A DNA stretch of 64,000 bases from the sequence record PQ567651.1; one strand, given 5' to 3'. The stretch comes from Escherichia phage cardinal. Made by a program: the position numbers and the translations under genes. Shown here in pieces: positions 46,543-60,936 of this stretch. The notes beneath the pieces are model-generated. The model did no database searches. It was not told the DNA's origin and saw nothing but the letters and a program-made list of their open reading frames with translations. Each line of letters opens with the position of its first letter. Position 1 is the stretch's first letter.

Positions 46543-47000
46543 TTACACCTCTCATTAGTAGTTTGTTATGCGCGATATTGCATATTTTATGGAACACAGT
46601 GTACAGACATTTCTATTCAATGCAAGCATTATTTGCATCTTATAAATTTACGTCTCATGCCACACATCATACAGCGTCTTTTCATCTATTACAAGAACAG
46701 CAACCTAGGAACATCATTAATGGAGGGATTAGTATAGGGATTAGTATAGGATTTCCCTATCAATTATTCTATATATACCTAATATTTTTAACACACCCCT
46801 TTGTACATAATATAGACAAATAAATATCTATGCCACAAAAATTTTCTGGTATACCCGATTTATTTCGACACACCCCCTTTTCATAAGCGTAAAGTCAATA
46901 ATATCAATAACTTGCCGCAAAATACTGCTCGCTTGCGAGAGGTGCTTAACGCGATTTTCAGCGCCCCCCCGATTTCTGCCGACCGTCCCCCTCAAATATC

Positions 47001-47037
47001 AATGAGAATAATTATCATTTGCATTATCATTCAATGA
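47001..47037. promoter_or_regulatory. Fur-box-like AT palindrome cluster
   Basis: aatgagaataattatcatttgcattatcattcaatga. Confidence 0.35.
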
Positions 47038-47198
47038 CTTATAAGACTTTTGATTATTTTCTGAGCAAGAAAGGTACTACTCACAACAAAACAGATAAAT
47101 TCTAAGTAAATCAATGGCTTGGCAAGTCTAAACATCTATATACACCTTGCCAAATGAAATGATCTGGCGTGAAATAGTGCCACCCGTGGAAGATAGCT

Positions 47199-47219
47199 GA
47201 TAATGATTATCATTTGCAT
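47199..47219. promoter_or_regulatory. Fur-box-like palindrome
   Basis: gataatgattatcatttgcat vs Fur box GATAATGATAATCATTATC. Confidence 0.4.
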
Positions 47220-47451
47220 ACTTTCTGTACTATAAAACCGACTAAAAATCAAGATAATTCTGATTTATTGCGCTTTTAAGAGAGTAGGCTCAACAAATAA
47301 CAACAAATGAGGTATGTTATAGGGGCAATAGTATGAAAAATCATCTATTCAGATGTAAATAATTTTGCGCAATAGTGGTAATATTTTTCTTGACAAGAAA
47401 GATTTCTTTGTGTGCACATAGCGCCCCTGGAGGGTGGCGCATTATGATCAT

Positions 47452-47505
47452 CAGTGTCATTATTCATTTCAGTGTCATTATTCATTTCAGTGTCATTATT
47501 CACCA
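47452..47505. repeat. 3 tandem copies of 18-bp unit cagtgtcattattcattt
   Basis: perfect copies 1-2, third diverges at end. Confidence 0.8.
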
Positions 47506-48120
47506 TGTTTATTATTGCATAGCTTATTATATGGAGCTTATATTATAGCCAATGTTCTAAACATTAGCTAATAATAACGCACCGCAACAATGTAAGGGAT
47601 ACAATATACCATGTATATTGTTGCGCTTGCAATTGTTGCAAGCTACATAAGCACAAATAATAACTATCGGTGATGGTTATTATGTGGGGTGTGTAGTTGC
47701 GTTATTATTAGCCGCCTATGTGTCCGGCATAGGCTGCTAATGATACGCTTGCGAATTATATTTCTTGTTATAGTTATTGTATGGAATGATTACTACATGA
47801 AATGGTTACTGTATGAAATGATTATCTAAGTAATAGATAGGAAGGTAAAGATTAGATCATAAATAGATAGGATGTGAATTATTTAGTAATGTTACTAACA
47901 ATTTAATAGTTACTTTGTGCAACAATTCGATAGATTATAATTGTAGTTTTAAGGGTTAGATAGATTATATTTAGCTTAGTAATGATTTATATTAGTTATT
48001 ATTGTTTAATACAATGTTATCAATGAGATAGTAACAGTAAGTTATAAATAAAGGTGAGATAATTAGTTTTAATTTAGTTAGATAACTTATTATTTTATAG
48101 GTTAGATGGTCTTAAGTTAA

Positions 48121-48196
48121 GAATGATTCTCATTATTGCATTATGCAATTTATTGCATAAATAATCAGCTATAAATAAGAATGATTATCATTTAAG
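48121..48196. promoter_or_regulatory. Fur-box-like palindromes
   Basis: gaatgattctcattattgcattatgcaat...aagaatgattatcatttaag. Confidence 0.35.
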
Positions 48197-48406
48197 AGGA
48201 AAGACAAGAAAAAGGCTGTTTTTGCCAGGTAATTACATGAAGAAATTAAAAATAAGCGGTCTAAAACACGTTGTAAGCGCCTTATGATCTTCATGGTATG
48301 GTTGTTCATCTGCTCCTTGATTAGCTCGATACCGCGATCTATTCACTTTTTTCGGTGAACGTTTTTGATAGGTAAAAGCTATCATCTTTATTTAGGTAAA
48401 AAGAAA

Positions 48407-56484: not shown

Positions 56485-56503
56485 GAATATTTTTTAGATA
56501 ATT

Positions 56504-56785
56504 TTAACTATATGATCCACATTGTTCGCAGTAGTGATCATCGTCGCCATCAGCTACCTGGCTGATAAAGTGATCTACTTTTGCTTTTAGGTTATTATAA
56601 TTGTTTTCTACTTCCTTTAATCGCTCCTGATAGTAGCCCAGGGCTTTAATATACGCCGCCTCTTCTGTTTTTTCACGCATGGCTAAATTCATGCCGCGCG
56701 TATCATCATACAGCCAAAAGCCATCGGTACATTCACTCATTGAAAGGGTAGGGCTTAACTCTTTATGATTAATTACCTTGCTCAT
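56504..56785 (-). CDS. hypothetical protein
   Basis: track ORF, internal ATG start; C-terminal CEQCG. Confidence 0.45.
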   Translation of the reverse strand: MSKVINHKELSPTLSMSECTDGFWLYDDTRGMNLAMREKTEEAAYIKALGYYQERLKEVENNYNNLKAKVDHFISQVADGDDDHYCEQCGSYS

Positions 56786-56796
56786 AGTGTGCGCCT

Positions 56797-56901
56797 TATA
56801 GAATGATTGAAACAACAATTGCTACAGTGATCCACACTGGAACGGCTAACAAAATAGCGTTAATCGTTCCAACCGTCAAGCTGTTTTCTTTCTTGATCAT
56901 C
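56797..56901 (-). CDS. small membrane peptide
   Basis: 34 aa hydrophobic ORF with AAAAGG RBS. Confidence 0.3.
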
Positions 56902-57169
56902 GTTATCAACCTTTTATAAGTAATGTTATTGTGACGGTGGATTGTGGAGATCCTCACCTTTGCCCGTCCTGCATTGCGCCCTCCTTTTGTTTATTGTCGT
57001 TGTGCCTCGCCCCCCTCGACAAGATGAATAATACGCTACCAGGTGAGGAACGTCAACCCCTTTTTTAATCTTTTTTTCATTTCTTTTTTTTGCTTGCTAT
57101 CTATAAAGGAAAGGGCTATTATCTTTCTACCACGCCAACCAGGGCGCACATCAAAGAAAGGGCGATACC

Positions 57170-57436
57170 ATGACAAATACTACTTTACACCTCATGCACT
57201 CATTAGGCTGGCAAGGCGGCACGGTGCACCAGGTAGCAAGCGCAACGGGCTTAAAGGTTGAAACCGTTCTCAACCTGGGCGATCATAAGGTGGAAGAAAT
57301 AGATCATTTTGATACGTTCGCAAATGGTTATCTATGGGCTTGCAGTGGCGGCGGGGAAAGCAAGATCCCACCAGGGGCGCGGGGTGATATATATTTTTGG
57401 TTAGGTGTCCTATCCTGGCAAGAAAACAAAAAATAA
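57170..57436 (+). CDS. hypothetical protein
   Basis: track ORF. Confidence 0.5.
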   Translation: MTNTTLHLMHSLGWQGGTVHQVASATGLKVETVLNLGDHKVEEIDHFDTFANGYLWACSGGGESKIPPGARGDIYFWLGVLSWQENKK

Positions 57437-57438
57437 TA

Positions 57439-57467
57439 TTGACAAGCCCAGGGATCGGGCTTATACT
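57439..57467 (+). promoter_or_regulatory. sigma70-like promoter TTGACA-17-TATACT with palindromic spacer
   Basis: TTGACAagcccagggatcgggctTATACT. Confidence 0.5.
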
Positions 57468-57586
57468 GTTTTACATACAGAAGAGGAAGCGCCACCCCCA
57501 CGGCGTAAAGGCGGGGCTAACATACCAGGGCACTACTGGTTGGAAGGTTGATCGCTGGTACAACGTATTTACAAAGGAGGTTAGCA

Positions 57587-58180
57587 ATGAAAAAAGTTTT
57601 TGGAGTAGGCATTAACGATAGTGCAAAGCCGATCAAAGGTTGTCGATTCTATGCAACATGGCGCAACATGTTACAACGTTGTTATAGTGAATCATATCAG
57701 GACAAAAGGCCATCTTATAAAGGTTGTAGTGTTTGTGATGAATGGTTGACGTTTAGCACTTTTCGTGCTTGGATGGAACAGCAGGATCACCAGGGAAAAC
57801 AATTAGATAAAGATATAATAACACCGGGTAATAAACTCTATTGTCCTGATCGTTGCGTATTTGTAACGCAAGAAATGAATAGTTTGTTAACAGTTACAAA
57901 GAGTAACAAAGGGGATCATCCTTTGGGTGTTTCATTTTTGAATCATAAACCATTGCCGCGCCCTTATTTAGCAACAATACGTTATAATAACGTAGTGGAA
58001 AGATTAGGGTACTATGTAGATCCTTTATCCGCTCATTTGGCCTGGAATAGGCGCAAACGTGAAATAATCATAGAGATTATTAGTAATGAAACGGATTCAA
58101 GGATCGCCGCTGGCTTGGCTTTACGTGTTGACGCTCTCGATCTGGCTTATGAAAATAAAGCGGAAATAACTTGCTTATGA
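57587..58180 (+). CDS. putative homing-endonuclease-like DNA-binding protein
   Basis: ATG after AAGGAGG; N-terminal FYATWRNMLQRCYSESY...GCSVCDEW motif and AP2-like GVSF...RLGYY segment. Confidence 0.4.
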   Translation: MKKVFGVGINDSAKPIKGCRFYATWRNMLQRCYSESYQDKRPSYKGCSVCDEWLTFSTFRAWMEQQDHQGKQLDKDIITPGNKLYCPDRCVFVTQEMNSLLTVTKSNKGDHPLGVSFLNHKPLPRPYLATIRYNNVVERLGYYVDPLSAHLAWNRRKREIIIEIISNETDSRIAAGLALRVDALDLAYENKAEITCL

Positions 58181-58183
58181 CGC

Positions 58184-58212
58184 TTGACAAGCGCCCGACA
58201 AGGGCGCATAAT
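58184..58212 (+). promoter_or_regulatory. TTGACA + palindrome + CATAAT element at start of non-coding region
   Basis: cTTGACAagcgcccgacaagggcgCATAATc. Confidence 0.4.
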
Positions 58213-58436
58213 CTCTTACATAGACAGGAACGCCTACCAATGGCGCTAAACTTGGTGATGATAGCCGCAGGGCATCGACAGCTATAATCGCCGGTAGCTC
58301 GTCTAAAATAAATTTGTAAAGAAATGTAAAGATAAAAATAATCGCTTGCTTTTGTTGTTGGTTATGCTATTCTTATTGTATGGCGAGGGGACACGGGAGC
58401 GCGAGACAAACACCGCCCCTGCGCGTTATTTTCTAA

Positions 58437-58546
58437 ATGAGAAAATTCTCATTTGCTAATGATTCTCATTCTCTTACTGAGAATGATTATCACTTACATA
58501 ATTAAATGATAATGATTCTCATTTACAAATGAGAATGATTATCATA
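58437..58546. promoter_or_regulatory. cluster of Fur-box-like palindromes
   Basis: repeated aatgattctcatt / gagaatgattatcat units. Confidence 0.4.
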
Positions 58547-58569
58547 CGCATACCTATAAAAACACGAAA

Positions 58570-58766
58570 TTGAACTTTTCATTTTTGATTTTTCTACGGA
58601 AAAAGGCAAAAAAACTTTAAATAAACTGGGGAATTTTTAAAAAATTGAAGTTTTCATTTTCAAAATCTGGATAGAAATACGTACAAAAACTTTAAATAAT
58701 TTTGACCAAACTTGAACTTTTCATTTTCAAAATTTGTACCCAAAAATCTGTAAAAACTTTAAATAA
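58570..58766. repeat. 3 direct repeats of ~55-bp unit TTGAACttttcattttcaaaat...aaaaactttaaataa
   Basis: three similar units at about 70-bp period. Confidence 0.7.
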
Positions 58767-59082
58767 TTTTGTACTTTTTATAAAAATGATTTTACTGTTC
58801 TGTTATAAGTAGTAGTTAAGAGATAGTATGCCTTTTAAAGATCAGATACCATAGTCAAACAAACAAATTAAATACTTTATTAACAGAGTACAGAATAATA
58901 TTTACTCTGGATATATTATTCAGAGGGTGGATTTCCGTACATGAAACCCACACCCCTTTTTATAAAAATAAAAATTTTCAAAATATCAGTAAATATCAGA
59001 TTGTGCTTTTAGATAAACAGCAAGGTCTGTATGCCATTTTCCTAAAAGATTTTGTCCTTTCCAACAGTCCTTATTTTCCACA

Positions 59083-59538
59083 TCACGATCCCACATTCCC
59101 ATTTTTGATACCATAAATAGAATCATAAGGGCTTGCCTCTACGAACTCCTTATCTGCGTAAGCGATAAGTTTATTTTTGAGATCTTCATTTTGTGTGTAT
59201 TTAAGATACAAACCACGTTTGACAATCTTCTCCCGTAAAGAAGTCCAGGTATCTTCATCATAATCTTTAACTAATCTGCCTAGACGTTTATAATATGCTT
59301 GTTCTTTTTCTCCTGTATATCTTAGATCTCCGGTTAAAATAGAAGATGCAATATTGTAATCATAAAACAAACATGCTTTTCTCCACATCATATATTGTTC
59401 CACACAAGTAAATTCGACAGAACTTGTGATAGAATTATTATACTTGGGAGCTAAAGGTTCAATAAAAGATGATAGATACCAGTTGCTAAATTCATCTTTT
59501 GCCGAGAAAAAGAACACATACTTGTCAGTAATCCGCAT
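59083..59538 (-). CDS. NADAR (YbiA-like, DUF1768) domain protein; C-terminus apparently frameshifted
   Basis: FTCVEQYMMWRKACLF, RLGRLVKDYDEDTW, EFVEASPYDSIYGI match NADAR; conserved C-terminal WKGQNLLG lies in +1 frame. Confidence 0.6.
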   Translation of the reverse strand: MRITDKYVFFFSAKDEFSNWYLSSFIEPLAPKYNNSITSSVEFTCVEQYMMWRKACLFYDYNIASSILTGDLRYTGEKEQAYYKRLGRLVKDYDEDTWTSLREKIVKRGLYLKYTQNEDLKNKLIAYADKEFVEASPYDSIYGIKNGNVGS

Positions 59539-60936
59539 TTACACCTCCTTATTGTATACTAATTTGCCACCATATTGTGTAACAATTTTTTGAAGATTTT
59601 CCAAATCAGAAACACTTACTGTTTCTGTATGACCATCTTTCAACTCTCTTGCCGTTAAAATACCAGTTTTTAATTTTTTCTTTATAGCTCTTTCAGCAGC
59701 CTTACATTGTTTCACTGTGCTAAAATCATATAAACAAATACGCTCCATAGGAAACATATTACAGCTATTTTGACGTTTTAATCGACTATCACTATTTTTA
59801 GCTATACCAAACTTAAGAGCAACTATAATATTATCATCCTTAACAATATTAATATATAACTGCTGCTGACTATGACCAGCACACATAGGACAACCTCGAC
59901 CGTGGCTTAATAAGGCATTAGCCCTCCCTGTCTGTTCCCCATGCACAAGACAAAGATATTTAAACTTACCGTGACTTCTAGACGGTTTACCGATCCAACC
60001 TACCCAGACATACCCTTTCCCTTCTACTTCCTTTTTTACCCTGTAGGTAATCTGATTTTCTGTATAGTGATAACTAGTTGCACAGCGGCAAGGGATACTT
60101 CCTTGTTTTAGGGGCCACCCTTTAGAGTAAAATTTACCATCGCAAACACCTGCTTGAACATATTCATCATGGGAGCAAACAGGACACTCAACCATCCATA
60201 CTGCATCACGCTTGTTACGTTTCCCTGTATTGGTGAAGATAGTGCCTTCCTTAAATTTCCCTGTAGAAAAGAAATCTGCAATATGTTGATCGTCGGACAT
60301 TGTTAGTGCCTTCCTTGTATTCTCATACCTACATAAAGGACAACCATAACCACGTTTAAAATTGTTAATACTTGTAGTATCCCATTTATAACCACAGTGA
60401 CACAACAAATCAAGTTTTGTTTTATGTCCTTTCCATTTTCCAACGTACCCTAACACCTGATACCCCTTCTTCTGTGCTATCTCTTCCAAGATCGGTAATT
60501 CTGTTTCCCATGCTAACGGTTTATTACTTGCACATGCCGGACAACCACGTCCATTCCTAAAATCAATAATGTTTGTGGTGTTCCACTCTCCATGTTTAGG
60601 GCAAATTATGCGAATTTTTGTTCGCACACCTCGCCACTCCTCGGCAAGACCTATAAAAGTAAACCCTCTTTCTTTAGCAATATCAACAAGGGAGATACAT
60701 TCCTTTTCTTCTGTTACTTTTCTATGACCATTGCAATCGGAGCAACATTTACCGCCTTTAGTTTTAAATACATTGATTATGGTACTTTCCCACTCTCCAT
60801 GATCAGAGCAAGATAGCTTAAGCCTAGTCCTGCTACCTTTCCATTCACCAACATAACCCAAGATTTGAATATTGTGATTTTTAGCAAGGGGTATTAATTC
60901 TTCTTTATATTGTTCCCATGATTTTAGTGCTACCAT
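59539..60936 (-). CDS. protein with five N-terminal Cys-rich (zinc-ribbon-like) repeats and C-terminal T5orf172/GIY-YIG-like domain
   Basis: repeats of LGYVGEWKG..TKL.L.C..HGEW.TT.IN.F..G.GCP.C; C-terminal LYINIV...FGIAKNSDSRLKRQ. Confidence 0.5.
   Translation of the reverse strand: MVALKSWEQYKEELIPLAKNHNIQILGYVGEWKGSRTRLKLSCSDHGEWESTIINVFKTKGGKCCSDCNGHRKVTEEKECISLVDIAKERGFTFIGLAEEWRGVRTKIRIICPKHGEWNTTNIIDFRNGRGCPACASNKPLAWETELPILEEIAQKKGYQVLGYVGKWKGHKTKLDLLCHCGYKWDTTSINNFKRGYGCPLCRYENTRKALTMSDDQHIADFFSTGKFKEGTIFTNTGKRNKRDAVWMVECPVCSHDEYVQAGVCDGKFYSKGWPLKQGSIPCRCATSYHYTENQITYRVKKEVEGKGYVWVGWIGKPSRSHGKFKYLCLVHGEQTGRANALLSHGRGCPMCAGHSQQQLYINIVKDDNIIVALKFGIAKNSDSRLKRQNSCNMFPMERICLYDFSTVKQCKAAERAIKKKLKTGILTARELKDGHTETVSVSDLENLQKIVTQYGGKLVYNKEV

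What the first reader, a model, noticed from the sequence alone, without database searches (positions are those of the whole stretch)
58181..59082. 0.9-kb non-coding region with an inward-facing promoter, operator-like palindromes and three ~55-bp direct repeats
After the stop of 57587..58180 there is a TTGACA-palindrome-CATAAT element, no ORF of note, the Fur-like palindrome array at 58437..58546, and three direct repeats at 58570..58766 of the form TTGAAC...ttttcatttt...aaaaactttaaataa. This could be a non-coding RNA gene, an origin or a pac-like site.
Basis: seen in the sequence. Interest (0 to 1): 0.5.

Follow-up and report, generated by a model that had tools for sequence, protein, structure and literature searches.

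The report
Fur-gated non-coding phage control locus
A gene-free stretch of a large E. coli phage carries promoters for small untranslated RNAs, a row of DNA sites matching the host iron sensor Fur, and three evenly spaced repeats; the layout is kept in hundreds of related phages, so it is probably a control or replication-start site that reads the host's iron status.

Summary
The window is a phi92-like E. coli myophage (Justusliebigvirus). The region is most of a non-coding locus whose layout is kept in about 360 phage genomes of two subfamilies. In order, the layout is:
- a sigma70 promoter;
- a ~215-nt untranslated RNA with a small candidate pseudoknot;
- a second promoter preceded by GTAAA-N5-GTAAA;
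- a 50-nt hairpin with an invariant loop;
- an array of palindromes;
- three 67-75-bp direct repeats in 78% A+T DNA;
- a terminator-like hairpin.

The promoter at 58184 is not native. It arrived with a 736-bp HNH homing-endonuclease cassette that split the RNA gene and supplied a replacement 5' half. A matrix built only from other phages' palindromes picks out exactly the Fur-controlled promoters of the E. coli ent-fep cluster, so the palindromes are Fur-type operators. The genome ends (342-bp terminal repeat) map 11 kb away, so this is not a pac site or terminus. An origin role for the repeats is plausible but untested. Best reading: a Fur-gated non-coding transcription unit feeding a protein-binding repeat platform. 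This is a new variant of known kinds, of moderate-to-high interest.

The parts
57170..57436 (+). Small conserved ORF (88 aa) at the head of the rightward island, just upstream of the native promoter
   Evidence: Matches PHROG 19316 at E 7e-59. 21 homologues were found. The N-terminal 41 aa are shared with phiTE_079 (hhalign 99%). The AF2 model has pLDDT 94 and five helices. No structural relative was found, so its function is unknown.
57439..57467 (+). Native promoter P1 (TTGACA-17-TATACT). Its GC hairpin spacer plus a T run also reads as a terminator for the upstream ORF.
   Evidence: Matches 11/12. A terminator-like site lies at 57444-57462. The promoter is identical in alia, inny and EmilieFrey and is kept at the same place in all relatives.
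57474..57550 (+). Orphaned 5' domain (variant A) of the RNA gene, cut off from the rest by the insertion
   Evidence: Alignment with alia. CGCC/GGCG stem and CCCC/GGGG loop-tail pairing.
57551..58286 (+). 736-bp mobile cassette: HNH homing endonuclease ORF (57587-58180), its own promoter and a variant-B 5' RNA domain. ATCGC microhomology at both junctions.
   Evidence: Absent in alia, inny, EmilieFrey and outra (query coverage 67% in 2 pieces). The ORF matches PHROG 953, HNH endonuclease, at E 2e-81. The variant-B domain is nearly identical to the native allele of Klebsiella phage NDO71 and similar to that of an Erwinia phage.
58184..58212 (+).
   Evidence: Matches 11/12. It lies inside the insertion.
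58219..58302 (+). 5' domain of the untranslated RNA (variant B): stem CGCC 58231-58234 / GGCG 58242-58245; loop CCAA 58237-58240 complementary to TTGG 58252-58255 (candidate H-type pseudoknot); invariant ATCGCCGGTAGCTCG at 58287-58301
   Evidence: Parse of 15 phages: the stem is constant, and the loop/tail switches together as CCCC/GGGG (10), CCAA/TTGG (4) and CCAG/CTGG (1). Composition-preserving shuffles give only modest support: 0.04-0.25 per variant.
58316..58330 (+). Direct repeat GTAAA-N5-GTAAA (the consensus of the CpxR box, recalled from memory) just upstream of P2
   Evidence: Unique in the window (1 hit against 0.43 expected) and unique in the 147-kb alia genome. Present in 14 of 17 phages, always 28 nt after the TCGCCGGTA anchor.
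58345..58373 (+). Internal promoter P2 (TTGCTT-16-TATTCT here; TTGATC/TTGCAA/TTGACC + TATTAT/TATATT/GATACT in relatives)
   Evidence: Both hexamers are kept at the same place in 15 phages of two subfamilies. Below the threshold of the scan tool in this window (8/12).
58381..58434 (+). Two-tier hairpin with conserved apical loop GAGACAAACACC (58403-58414), followed by TTATTTTCT. It is the 3' end of the P1 RNA and makes up nearly the whole P2 RNA.
   Evidence: The 16-mer CGCGAGACAAACACCG is invariant from phi92-like phages to PVP-SE1 and Erwinia phages. The same fold is predicted in 12 versions with different stem sequences. The RNAalifold consensus is weak. A 1-nt indel between lineages rules out a conserved ORF.
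58436..58550 (.). Array of Fur-type operators: 19-mers at 58452, 58476, 58505 and 58528 (15-32 bits), plus a 6-2-6 variant palindrome at 58436-58455. 29-bp spacing.
   Evidence: A matrix built from 13 other phages scores these sites 15.3, 21.8, 32.4 and 25.8 bits. In 27 kb of E. coli K-12 its only hits of 8 bits or more are the fepA-fes, fepD-entS and fepB-entC control regions. JLBYU50 lacks 53 bp, which removes two boxes.
58567..58787 (.). Three direct repeats (starts 58567, 58642, 58709). Each has a 5' block TTGAAsTTTTCATTTT and a 3' block AAAAACTTTAAATAA. GC content 0.21-0.25.
   Evidence: The repeats are invariant except for 3 substitutions among window, JLBYU50 and alia. Nine of ten phages compared keep three copies and a first-to-third distance of 139-145 bp (the tenth shows two full-length copies 138 bp apart), while the 3' motif changes: CTTTAAATAA, GATCGAGwACC or CTCAAGTwCC.
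58788..58921 (.). A+T-rich spacer, poorly conserved between genera
58922..58965 (.). Hairpin followed by TTTTT on the + strand. It is terminator-like for rightward transcripts and lies 30 nt past the stop of the leftward NADAR gene.
   Evidence: Folding gives -11.8 kcal/mol (z -2.2) on the + strand and -20.1 kcal/mol (z -3.9) on the - strand. Counterparts with a T run exist in Tr1 and tuntematon.
58981..58997 (.). AAATATC x2, 10 bp apart (x3-5 in Vequintavirinae), overlapping the NADAR stop codon

Best explanation
The region is the main part of a conserved non-coding control locus of rV5-like and phi92-like phages. It is a rightward, host-sigma70-driven, untranslated transcription unit set head-on inside the leftward early-gene block.

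Shown:
- Promoter P1 is duplicated here by an HNH homing cassette, which supplies its own promoter and a replacement 5' RNA domain so that an intact RNA gene remains.
- Then follow a ~215-nt RNA region, an internal promoter P2, a hairpin with an invariant loop plus a U run, four to five operators with the specificity of host Fur, three repeats of fixed number and geometry in 78% A+T DNA, and a terminator-like hairpin.

Inferred:
1. Host RNA polymerase makes a long and a short RNA that share the hairpin 3' end.
2. Fe2+-Fur, bound cooperatively to the array, acts as a repressor or roadblock. It decides whether transcription passes between the RNA gene and the repeat block, and whether the promoter-like sequences inside the array fire.
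3. The three repeats (first to third about 142 bp) are the landing platform of a lineage-specific phage DNA-binding protein.
4. The most likely job of the platform is a transcription-activated internal replication origin of the T7/T4 type. That would tie the start of phage DNA synthesis to the host's iron status.

My probabilities:
- about 0.6 that this is a Fur-operated non-coding transcription unit with a protein-binding repeat platform;
- about 0.3 that the platform is an origin.
For: - Phage identity: phi92-like.
- Spread: the same order of elements is found in 361 phage records of two subfamilies and in every locus read.
- Promoters.
- Non-coding status.
- RNA features.
- Fur specificity: enrichment, the reciprocal matrix test on the E. 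coli ent-fep cluster, sites offset by 6 bp (58528/58534, 47001/47007, 47196/47202), and clustering as described for real Fur operators (PMC2189734).
- Repeats: unique in the genome, and their number and span are conserved while their sequence diverges. They are nearly invariant among close relatives, whereas the Fur array varies in copy number.
- A+T richness: GC 0.21-0.25.
- Replisome: relatives encode a family-A DNA polymerase and a primase/helicase (annotation). I read this as a T7-like replisome.
- Homing endonucleases target this locus in several lineages. This fits a conserved, probably indispensable, target sequence.
Against: - No transcript, Fur binding or replication start has been observed.
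- The RNA folds no better than shuffled sequence (z +0.9 and -0.6).
- The RNAalifold consensus for the hairpin is weak, and the pseudoknot statistics are modest.
- A clear third promoter in front of the repeats exists only in Vequintavirinae, not in this window.
- The Fur array lies downstream of P2 rather than over it.
- For an origin: no DnaA boxes, no GC-skew inflection apart from the one that follows gene orientation, and no recognisable initiator next door. The neighbours are NADAR, a homing endonuclease and an AAA ATPase. The small ORF has no recognisable DNA-binding fold.
- A phage protein rather than Fur could bind the palindromes.
Confidence: 0.4

Rival explanations
1. A purely regulatory locus with no role in replication. 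P1 and P2 make a trans- or antisense-acting small RNA whose conserved hairpin loop is the seed. The Fur boxes repress leftward promoter-like sequences that feed the downstream early genes. The repeats bind a phage regulator. The head-on promoters, hairpins and bound proteins act together as a boundary between two temporal blocks of early genes.
For: - The invariant loop GAGACAAnCAC sits on variable stems.
- A long and a short RNA sharing one 3' end is a common small-RNA layout (my knowledge).
- Promoter-like hexamers lie inside the array on both strands (TTCTCA-18-TATCAT, 9/12).
- On the minus strand, TTGAAT-N18-CAGAAT flanks the first box in Vequintavirinae, and TTGAAT-N18-TATTCT flanks the box inside the terminal repeat (read).
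- 83% of E. coli Fur clusters overlap sigma70 promoters (PMC2189734).
- A strong leftward promoter at 57056-57028 (10/12) starts the next gene block.
Against: - No complement of the loop was found anywhere in the phage. A host target was not searched for.
- The leftward promoter candidates are weak (8-9 of 12).
- The rival does not explain why the number and 142-bp span of the repeats are kept while their sequence changes.
Confidence: 0.3
2. A Fur sponge. The roughly ten high-affinity Fur sites per genome, multiplied by replication, titrate host Fur and derepress host iron uptake for the phage's iron-dependent ribonucleotide reductases. The RNA gene and the repeats would be unrelated neighbours.
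For: - Eight sites of 15-32 bits lie in the window, stronger than the host ent-fep sites under the same matrix, which score 11-14 bits.
- Titration of Fur by multicopy Fur boxes is an established assay (PMC2189734).
- Relatives encode class Ia and class III ribonucleotide reductases.
Against: - The boxes sit at fixed positions relative to the promoters and the hairpin in 17 phages, with a fixed 29-bp spacing. A mere sponge would not need this.
- Some lineages keep only one box (PVP-SE1, Erwinia phage, UPEC06).
- JLBYU50 lost two boxes.
Confidence: 0.1
3. A packaging (pac) site or genome terminus.
For: - Repeats and palindromes are typical of termini.
- The sequence 58530-58562 resembles the right edge of the terminal repeat at 47198-47240 (read).
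- Three public records (phi1_175008, ETEC-TG, EC152) start within about 100 nt of the end of the repeats.
Against: - The BME3 terminal repeat (342 bp, determined with PhageTerm) maps to 46875-47217 at 96.5% identity.
- In KPP-1 the terminal repeat is 8 kb from the homologous locus.
- The terminase gene is about 70 kb away in alia.
- The record starts may be assembly breaks in very A+T-rich DNA.
Confidence: 0.03
4. An injection-stop boundary like the T5 iss region. DNA entry would pause here, 8% from one genome end, with host Fur as the clamp.
For: - The locus lies 11.2 kb (7.6% of 147 kb) from the terminal repeat.
- The T5-like phage Gostya9 carries six or more strong boxes of the same kind in the repeat-rich non-coding region of its long terminal repeat. 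That region is where iss is placed (bioRxiv 10.1101/866236).
Against: - The end next to this locus has genes pointing toward it.
- The inward-facing early promoter of the terminal repeat points the other way (read). By analogy with T7, the other end would enter first.
- Two-step transfer is not known in these phages.
Confidence: 0.04
5. Functionless A+T-rich spacer and landing pad for homing endonucleases.
For: Two or three homing-type endonuclease genes lie in or beside the locus.
Against: - The order, spacing and several sequence blocks are kept across two subfamilies and 361 records.
- The region is as conserved as the flanking genes among close relatives: 96.6-99.1%.
Confidence: 0.03

Closest known systems
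Fur operator clusters of E. coli iron-uptake promoters (fepA-fes, fepB-entC, fhuF, iucA)
   Same: - Same 7-1-7 / 19-bp palindrome.
- Sites come in clusters, some offset by 6 bp.
- The array spans about 110 bp, within the 19-142 bp range reported for host clusters.
- A matrix built from the phage sites finds the host operators.
   Different: - They sit in a virulent phage, not in front of an iron gene.
- They lie downstream of a promoter and an RNA hairpin rather than over the -35/-10 of an obvious gene promoter.
- The main sites have a regular 29-bp spacing.
- The half-site is more often TGAGAAT than TGATAAT.
- Binding has not been tested.
Transcription-primed phage origins (T7 primary origin: tandem promoters 1.1A/1.1B plus an A+T-rich segment; T4 oriF/oriG: promoter plus unwinding element). 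From my knowledge.
   Same: - Tandem promoters read into a gene-free, very A+T-rich stretch.
- The phage family encodes a family-A polymerase and a primase/helicase.
- Short direct terminal repeats with T7-type packaging are reported for relatives.
   Different: - The promoters are for host sigma70.
- Three long repeats and a Fur array lie in between.
- No initiation point has been mapped.
Iteron origins (lambda ori, P1 oriR, theta plasmids). From my knowledge.
   Same: Several direct repeats of a unique sequence lie next to A+T-rich DNA, and the repeat sequence differs between lineages as if it co-evolves with a binding protein.
   Different: - The units are 67-75 bp rather than 17-22 bp.
- There are only three.
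- No initiator gene is adjacent.
- There are no DnaA boxes.
T5 'repeat regions' / injection stop signal region (bioRxiv 10.1101/866236)
   Same: - A large conserved untranslated region packed with direct repeats and palindromes.
- It is interrupted in some phages by an HNH endonuclease gene.
- It carries arrays of the same Fur-type palindrome (seen here in the T5-like phage Gostya9).
   Different: - The T5 region lies inside a 10-kb terminal repeat and holds paired DnaA boxes.
- This locus is 11 kb from a 342-bp terminal repeat and has no DnaA boxes.
- The T5 paper does not mention Fur.
Free-standing homing endonuclease cassettes of T-even and T5-like phages (intronless homing). From my knowledge.
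   Same: - Presence/absence polymorphism among near-identical genomes.
- Insertion into a highly conserved sequence.
- A foreign allele of the flanking target is co-inherited.
   Different: The target is a non-coding RNA gene, and the cassette repairs it by bringing a promoter and a 5' half of the RNA.
CpxR box GTAAA-N5-GTAAA of the E. coli envelope-stress regulon. From my knowledge.
   Same: A perfect match to the consensus, placed about 12-25 nt upstream of the -35 of a conserved promoter.
   Different: - A single occurrence, not statistically unusual on its own.
- The conserved unit is longer (TGTAAAGA twice).
- It could serve any regulator that binds direct repeats.

Membership tests
Fur operator (Fur box cluster) | Match to the 7-1-7 inverted repeat TGATAAT-N-ATTATCA / 19-bp box | tested here: met
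   Sites at 58478, 58507 and 58530 have 1 mismatch. The site at 47198 is perfect.
Fur operator (Fur box cluster) | Same sequence specificity as experimentally defined host operators | tested here: met
   A matrix from 27 boxes of 13 other phages was scanned over E. coli K-12 605000-632000. All 5 hits of 8 bits or more fall in the fepA-fes, fepD-entS and fepB-entC intergenic regions.
Fur operator (Fur box cluster) | Clustered, overlapping sites offset by 3 or 6 bp (PMC2189734) | tested here: met
   Offsets of 6 bp at 58528/58534, 47001/47007 and 47196/47202. There are 4-5 sites within 115 bp.
Fur operator (Fur box cluster) | Overlap with the -35/-10 of a regulated promoter | tested here: inconclusive
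   Only 9/12 promoter-like matches lie inside the array, on both strands. P2 lies 60 nt upstream.
Fur operator (Fur box cluster) | Metal-dependent binding of Fur | not testable with these tools
   Needs a footprint, EMSA, ChIP or a Fur titration assay.
Small non-coding RNA gene | Promoter with no ORF downstream, conserved in relatives | tested here: met
   P1 matches 11/12. P1 and P2 are kept in 15 phages. An indel breaks the only short frame.
Small non-coding RNA gene | Conserved secondary structure with compensatory changes | tested here: inconclusive
   Loop/tail pairs switch together as CCCC/GGGG, CCAA/TTGG and CCAG/CTGG, but shuffles reach this in 4-25% of trials. The hairpin fold recurs in 12 versions, yet the RNAalifold covariation term is positive. 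MFE z-scores are not significant.
Small non-coding RNA gene | Intrinsic terminator | tested here: inconclusive
   A GC-rich hairpin is followed by UUAUUUUCU in this window. Most other genera have only UCAUUCUG or CUAUUCUG. The scan tool does not list it.
Any Rfam 15 family | Covariance-model match | tested here: not met
   No hit at E<=1 in window 56500-59600. Seven intact loci gave only chance microRNA and lncRNA hits (E 0.17-3.5, far below gathering scores; the strongest lie on the palindromes of L010).
Iteron-type replication origin | Three or more direct repeats unique in the genome, next to A+T-rich DNA | tested here: met
Iteron-type replication origin | Adjacent initiator gene and/or DnaA boxes | tested here: not met
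   The neighbours are NADAR, a CapR/T5orf172 endonuclease and an AAA ATPase with only weak clamp-loader/DnaC-like similarity. The small ORF has no DNA-binding fold match. No TTWTNCACA occurs in 58181-58985.
Iteron-type replication origin | Strand-composition switch independent of gene orientation | tested here: not met
   Cumulative GC skew of alia turns only where transcription turns. The rV5 authors reported the same (PMC3606486).
T7/T4-type transcription-primed origin | Promoter(s) reading into an unwinding-prone A+T-rich stretch without an ORF | tested here: met
   P1/P1' and P2 lie upstream of 58425-58875, where GC is 0.21-0.25.
T7/T4-type transcription-primed origin | Mapped start of DNA synthesis | not testable with these tools
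   Needs marker-frequency analysis, 2D gels or nascent-strand mapping.
pac site / genome terminus | Coincides with the physical ends of virion DNA | tested here: not met
   The BME3 terminal repeat maps to 46875-47217. In KPP-1 the terminal repeat is 8 kb from the homologous locus.
CpxR box | GTAAA-N5-GTAAA upstream of a promoter | tested here: met
   Located at 58316-58330, 15 nt before the -35 of P2. Present in 14 of 17 phages.
CpxR box | More frequent than chance; binding of CpxR-P | tested here: not met
   1 hit against 0.43 expected in the window. Binding is not testable here.
Free-standing HNH homing endonuclease cassette | HNH-family ORF present or absent between near-identical genomes, inserted in a conserved target | tested here: met
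   PHROG 953 at E 2e-81, with no Pfam hit. The 736-bp insertion is defined against alia. Raoultella phage Ro1 and PVP-SE1 carry HNH genes at or next to the same locus.
Type III antitoxin RNA repeats (ToxI-like) | Tandem repeats followed by a toxin gene | tested here: not met
   No ORF lies downstream. The units are 67-75 nt, against about 36 nt for ToxI (my knowledge).

The most novel reading that the evidence does not exclude
Virulent enterobacterial phages of at least two unrelated lineages have recruited the host iron sensor Fur as an architectural and regulatory protein at their key cis-acting DNA sites. The lineages are the rV5/phi92-like myophages and the T5-like siphophages. In the former, the sites are the edge of the terminal repeat and this internal locus. 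In the latter, it is the repeat region where first-step DNA transfer stops. Under this reading, iron status would gate phage DNA transactions such as the start of replication, end processing or DNA entry. The associated RNA with its pseudoknot 5' domain and invariant hairpin loop would be a new phage RNA class.
Probability: 0.2. Interest if true: 0.8.

Novelty: new variant of a known kind. Interest (0 to 1): 0.6.

Why it matters
- The rV5-, phi92- and PVP-SE1-like phages are among the most widely used broad-host-range therapeutic and biocontrol phages. Their origin of replication and early regulation are unknown: the rV5 genome paper could not place the origin and drew a box simply labelled 'non-coding' (PMC3606486).
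- This locus is a concrete, conserved, experimentally tractable candidate for that missing control site.
- Host Fur operators in strictly lytic phages, including at the edge of the terminal repeat and in T5-like phages, have not been described in the papers I could search. If they bind Fur, they would link phage development to iron availability, which is the dominant nutritional variable in the gut and in infection sites where these phages are applied.
- The locus also offers a candidate new structured RNA, and a neat case of a homing endonuclease that repairs the non-coding gene it interrupts.

Tried and rejected
- **Rfam.** I searched the window and seven intact relatives. Nothing real turned up.
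- **tRNA/tmRNA scan.** None found.
- **Single-sequence folding of the RNA.** Not more stable than shuffles.
- **RNAalifold on the hairpin.** Weak consensus, partly because MAFFT mis-registers the stems. A column-based pair count on the pseudoknot was abandoned for the same reason and replaced by a per-sequence parse and shuffles.
- **GC/AT skew for an origin.** It only mirrors gene orientation.
- **Repeats as a general promoter class.** Rejected, because the motif occurs nowhere else in 147 kb and late-gene upstream regions carry sigma70-like promoters instead.
- **A conserved peptide in the hairpin region.** Rejected because of a frame-breaking indel.
- **Target of the hairpin loop inside the phage.** None found.
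- **BLAST of the Fur array against all complete E. coli genomes.** Uninformative at that database size, so I replaced it with the matrix test on the ent-fep cluster.
- **Exact-word scan of IMG/VR.** About half of the 17 loci were chance hits in coding DNA.
- **Neighbouring genes as initiators.** Not supported.
- **ToxI-like antitoxin mimic** (the relative phiTE is known for one). No similarity in unit length or context.
- **One literature search was poorly targeted and returned nothing useful**.
- **The PVP-SE1 genome paper is not held**.
Full report
**What the window is**

The 2.2 kb around the finding is 97-98% identical to phi92-like E. coli myophages (outra, alia, inny, EmilieFrey; genus Justusliebigvirus, subfamily Stephanstirmvirinae). 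The region lies inside a long block of small early genes on the minus strand. Its right neighbour is a NADAR / YbiA-like gene. On its left is a small plus-strand ORF.

**Check of the observation**

All four described features are present and non-random.
- TTGACA-N17-CATAAT lies at 58184-58212 and matches 11 of 12 positions.
- No ORF of note lies in the region.
- The palindrome array is at 58437-58550.
- Three direct repeats start at 58567, 58642 and 58709. Their period is 75 and 67 bp rather than about 55 bp. Their core 13-mer occurs nowhere else in the window, and the corresponding 12-mer occurs nowhere else in a whole related genome.

Two boundaries need correction.
- The right end of the intergenic space is 58985. 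The NADAR gene is split in this window by a 1-nt frameshift in a T run.
- The left 100 nt, including the promoter, belong to a mobile insertion.

**The promoter came with a homing endonuclease**

Relative to alia, the window carries 736 extra bases (57551-58286), with ATCGC at both junctions. The insert holds three things:
- the HNH ORF 57587-58180 (PHROG 953, E 2e-81; no Pfam hit);
- the promoter at 58184;
- about 75 nt that are a different allele ('variant B') of the sequence the insert interrupts.

That allele is nearly identical to the native one of Klebsiella phage NDO71 and is close to that of an Erwinia phage. The native promoter is at 57439-57467 (TTGACA-17-TATACT, 11/12). It now drives only a truncated 5' piece. 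The cassette promoter drives a complete copy. The interrupted gene is therefore repaired by the element that interrupts it.

**Anatomy of the conserved locus**

BLAST with the native non-coding part finds 168 phage records. BLAST with the PVP-SE1 version finds 361. These span Stephanstirmvirinae and Vequintavirinae on Escherichia, Klebsiella, Salmonella, Cronobacter, Enterobacter, Pectobacterium, Erwinia and Proteus.

I read 17 loci. All but rV5, which has its own variant of the upstream part (described after this list), have the same order of parts:
1. A small plus-strand ORF.
2. P1, a near-consensus sigma70 promoter whose GC-rich spacer hairpin plus T run also looks like the terminator of that ORF.
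3. A 5' RNA domain with the stem CGCC/GGCG. Its loop is complementary to a tail segment 5-7 nt further on. The loop/tail pair is CCCC/GGGG in 10 phages, CCAA/TTGG in 4 and CCAG/CTGG in 1, which would make an H-type pseudoknot.
4. The invariant ATCGCCGGTAG.
5. GTAAA-N5-GTAAA, present in 14 of 17 phages and always 28 nt after that anchor.
6. P2, a second sigma70 promoter kept in all 15 phages parsed for it.
7. A 50-nt two-tier hairpin whose stems differ between lineages but whose apical loop GAGACAAnCAC is conserved. It is followed by a U-rich run that is good in this window (UUAUUUUCU) and poor elsewhere.
8. One to six 21-bp palindromes, AAATGAGAATGATTaTCATTt, typically 29 bp apart.
9. In Vequintavirinae only, a third promoter.
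10. Three direct repeats.
11. A variable A+T-rich spacer.
12. A hairpin with a T run.
13. Two to five AAATATC motifs at the end of the converging gene.

rV5 itself has two tandem promoter-hairpin-palindrome modules in place of parts 2-7.

The region does not encode a conserved peptide, because a 1-nt indel in the hairpin changes the frame between lineages.

No Rfam family matches.

Thermodynamic support for the RNA is weak. The pseudoknot covariation is suggestive but not conclusive: composition-preserving shuffles reproduce a 4-bp match in 4-25% of trials per variant.

**The palindromes are Fur-type operators**

Three sites in the array differ by one base from the 7-1-7 Fur motif TGATAAT-N-ATTATCA. 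A perfect copy lies at 47198. In the whole alia genome, every site with at most one mismatch lies in this locus or in one other non-coding region.

For a test that does not depend on my memory of the consensus, I built a symmetrised 19-bp matrix from 27 palindromes of 13 other phages and scanned two sequences with it.
- In 27 kb of E. coli K-12 (the ent-fep cluster), its only five hits of 8 bits or more are in the fepA-fes, fepD-entS and fepB-entC control regions. These are the three Fur-regulated bidirectional promoters of that cluster.
- In the window, its hits of 15 bits or more are at 47001, 47196, 48116, 48174, 58452, 58476, 58505 and 58528 only.

Several sites have a partner offset by 6 bp, and the array spans about 110 bp. 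This matches the clusters described for genuine E. coli Fur operators (PMC2189734).

The same palindrome also forms large arrays in the T5-like phage Gostya9, which shares almost no genes with this phage. That favours a host factor over a phage-encoded binder. Binding itself remains untested. I put the chance that Fur binds here at about two in three.

**The repeats look like a protein platform, not an RNA or a promoter class**

Nine of ten phages from both subfamilies have exactly three copies, with a first-to-third distance of 139-145 bp; in the tenth, tuntematon, the tool found two full-length copies 138 bp apart and three copies only of a shorter 34-nt family. The sequence diverges, and the 3' block changes from CTTTAAATAA to GATCGAGwACC or CTCAAGTwCC.

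Among close relatives the repeats are almost invariant, while the neighbouring Fur array gains and loses boxes. JLBYU50 lacks 53 bp, which removes two boxes.

The motif is absent upstream of other genes.

Conserved number and geometry combined with a lineage-specific sequence is what one expects of binding sites that co-evolve with a phage protein. I could not name that protein.
- The adjacent genes are NADAR, a CapR/T5orf172 homing-type endonuclease and an AAA ATPase.
- The upstream 88-aa ORF gives a confident five-helix model but has no structural relatives.

**Not a genome end**

Relatives package DNA with short direct terminal repeats: 342 bp in BME3 and 514 bp in KPP-1 (PMC12210895, PMC9862379).
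- The annotated BME3 repeat maps at 96.5% identity to window 46875-47217, in the other large non-coding region, 11.2 kb to the left.
- In KPP-1 the repeat is 8 kb from the homologous locus.

Fur-type boxes lie inside and at the right edge of the terminal repeat here (47001, 47196). They also lie near the right edge of the KPP-1 repeat.

**Origin?**

The layout resembles transcription-primed origins of the T7/T4 type: tandem promoters without an ORF read into DNA of 21-25% G+C that carries unique repeats. The family also encodes a family-A polymerase and a primase/helicase.

Against this:
- skew analysis is uninformative (the rV5 authors found the same);
- there are no DnaA boxes;
- there is no neighbouring initiator.

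I keep origin as the leading functional guess for the repeat block, at about 0.3. A purely regulatory locus (small RNA plus boundary) is almost as likely.

**Verdict**

The thing itself is a conserved, multi-part, Fur-operated non-coding transcription unit with a repeat platform. The rV5 genome paper draws an unexplained box labelled 'non-coding' (PMC3606486). The T5 analysis I read catalogues similar repeats and palindromes without mentioning Fur (bioRxiv 10.1101/866236). It is a new variant of known kinds, and worth experiments that are simple to do.

Noticed in passing
window 46875-47217 (and the whole non-coding stretch 46830-48230): This stretch corresponds to the 342-bp direct terminal repeat of the congeneric phage BME3, so it is probably the physical genome end. 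Strong Fur-type boxes lie inside it (47001, 30.7 bits) and at its right edge (47196, a perfect TGATAATGATTATCA ending 5 nt before the boundary). Two more lie at 48116 and 48174. Further right are several other repeat families, for example TCAGTGTCATTATTCATT three times at 47450-47505.
   Followed up: partly
L013 (Escherichia phage Gostya9, T5-like) 850-1610; L043 (Klebsiella phage KPP-1) 1014-1170: The same Fur-type palindrome forms large arrays in the repeat-rich non-coding part of a T5-like long terminal repeat, the area where the T5 injection-stop signal is placed. It also lies near the right edge of the KPP-1 terminal repeat. PMC2189734 lists a 22-bit Fur site just upstream of nohA, which I take to be a prophage gene for a lambda Nu1-like terminase small subunit. 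Fur boxes next to phage DNA ends may be a recurrent theme.
   Followed up: partly
window 58986-59538 (-): The NADAR / YbiA-like gene is split into ORFs 59083-59538 and 58986-59126 by one extra T in a T run near 59103-59107 (alia has T4). This is either a pseudogene or a homopolymer sequencing error.
   Followed up: partly
window 59539-60936 (-): A second homing-type endonuclease (five CapR repeats plus a T5orf172 domain; PHROG 681) lies directly beside the locus. Its length varies between relatives: 1398 nt in alia, 1173 in inny and 978 in EmilieFrey.
   Followed up: no
window 57439-57467 and 58184-58212: Both promoters have a GC-rich inverted repeat as the 17-nt spacer, followed by a T-rich start region. 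The same 30 nt therefore read as an intrinsic terminator for the gene before and as a promoter for what follows. The design recurs in all relatives.
   Followed up: partly
window 58316-58330: GTAAAGAAATGTAAA is a perfect match to the CpxR-box consensus as I recall it. It is conserved upstream of promoter P2 in 14 of 17 phages. In Justusliebigvirus and in Phapecoctavirus tuntematon it sits 10 nt (one helical turn) further from the -35 than in the other genera.
   Followed up: partly
[not shown]
   Followed up: yes
L009 (phi1_175008), ETEC-TG OR786310.1, EC152 PP681140.1: Three public genome records from different genera begin within about 100 nt of the end of the three repeats. This may be an assembly break in very A+T-rich DNA, or a hint of a discontinuity there.
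   Followed up: no
L042 (JLBYU50) versus window 58457-58509: A 53-bp deletion between two TAATGATTCTCATT copies removes two Fur-type boxes in a viable relative, so box number is plastic. The right-most box also differs between relatives (inny and JLBYU50 against the window).
   Followed up: yes
L033 (rV5) 1800-2060: rV5 has two tandem modules of promoter, hairpin with a GAGACAAnCACC loop, and Fur-type box. It lacks the pseudoknot domain and the GTAAA repeat. The rV5 record annotates a minus-strand ORF (gp193) over them that is probably spurious.
   Followed up: no
L011, L034, L035, L036 (PVP-SE1, GAP31, KpS8, Mydo): GenBank records annotate minus-strand 'hypothetical proteins' (for example PVP-SE1 gp202 and gp203, and KpS8 gp121) across the three repeats. 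No such ORF exists in the phi92-like phages, and repeat lengths are not multiples of three, so these are probably over-annotations. The Vequintavirinae repeats each carry one to three GATC sites.
   Followed up: no
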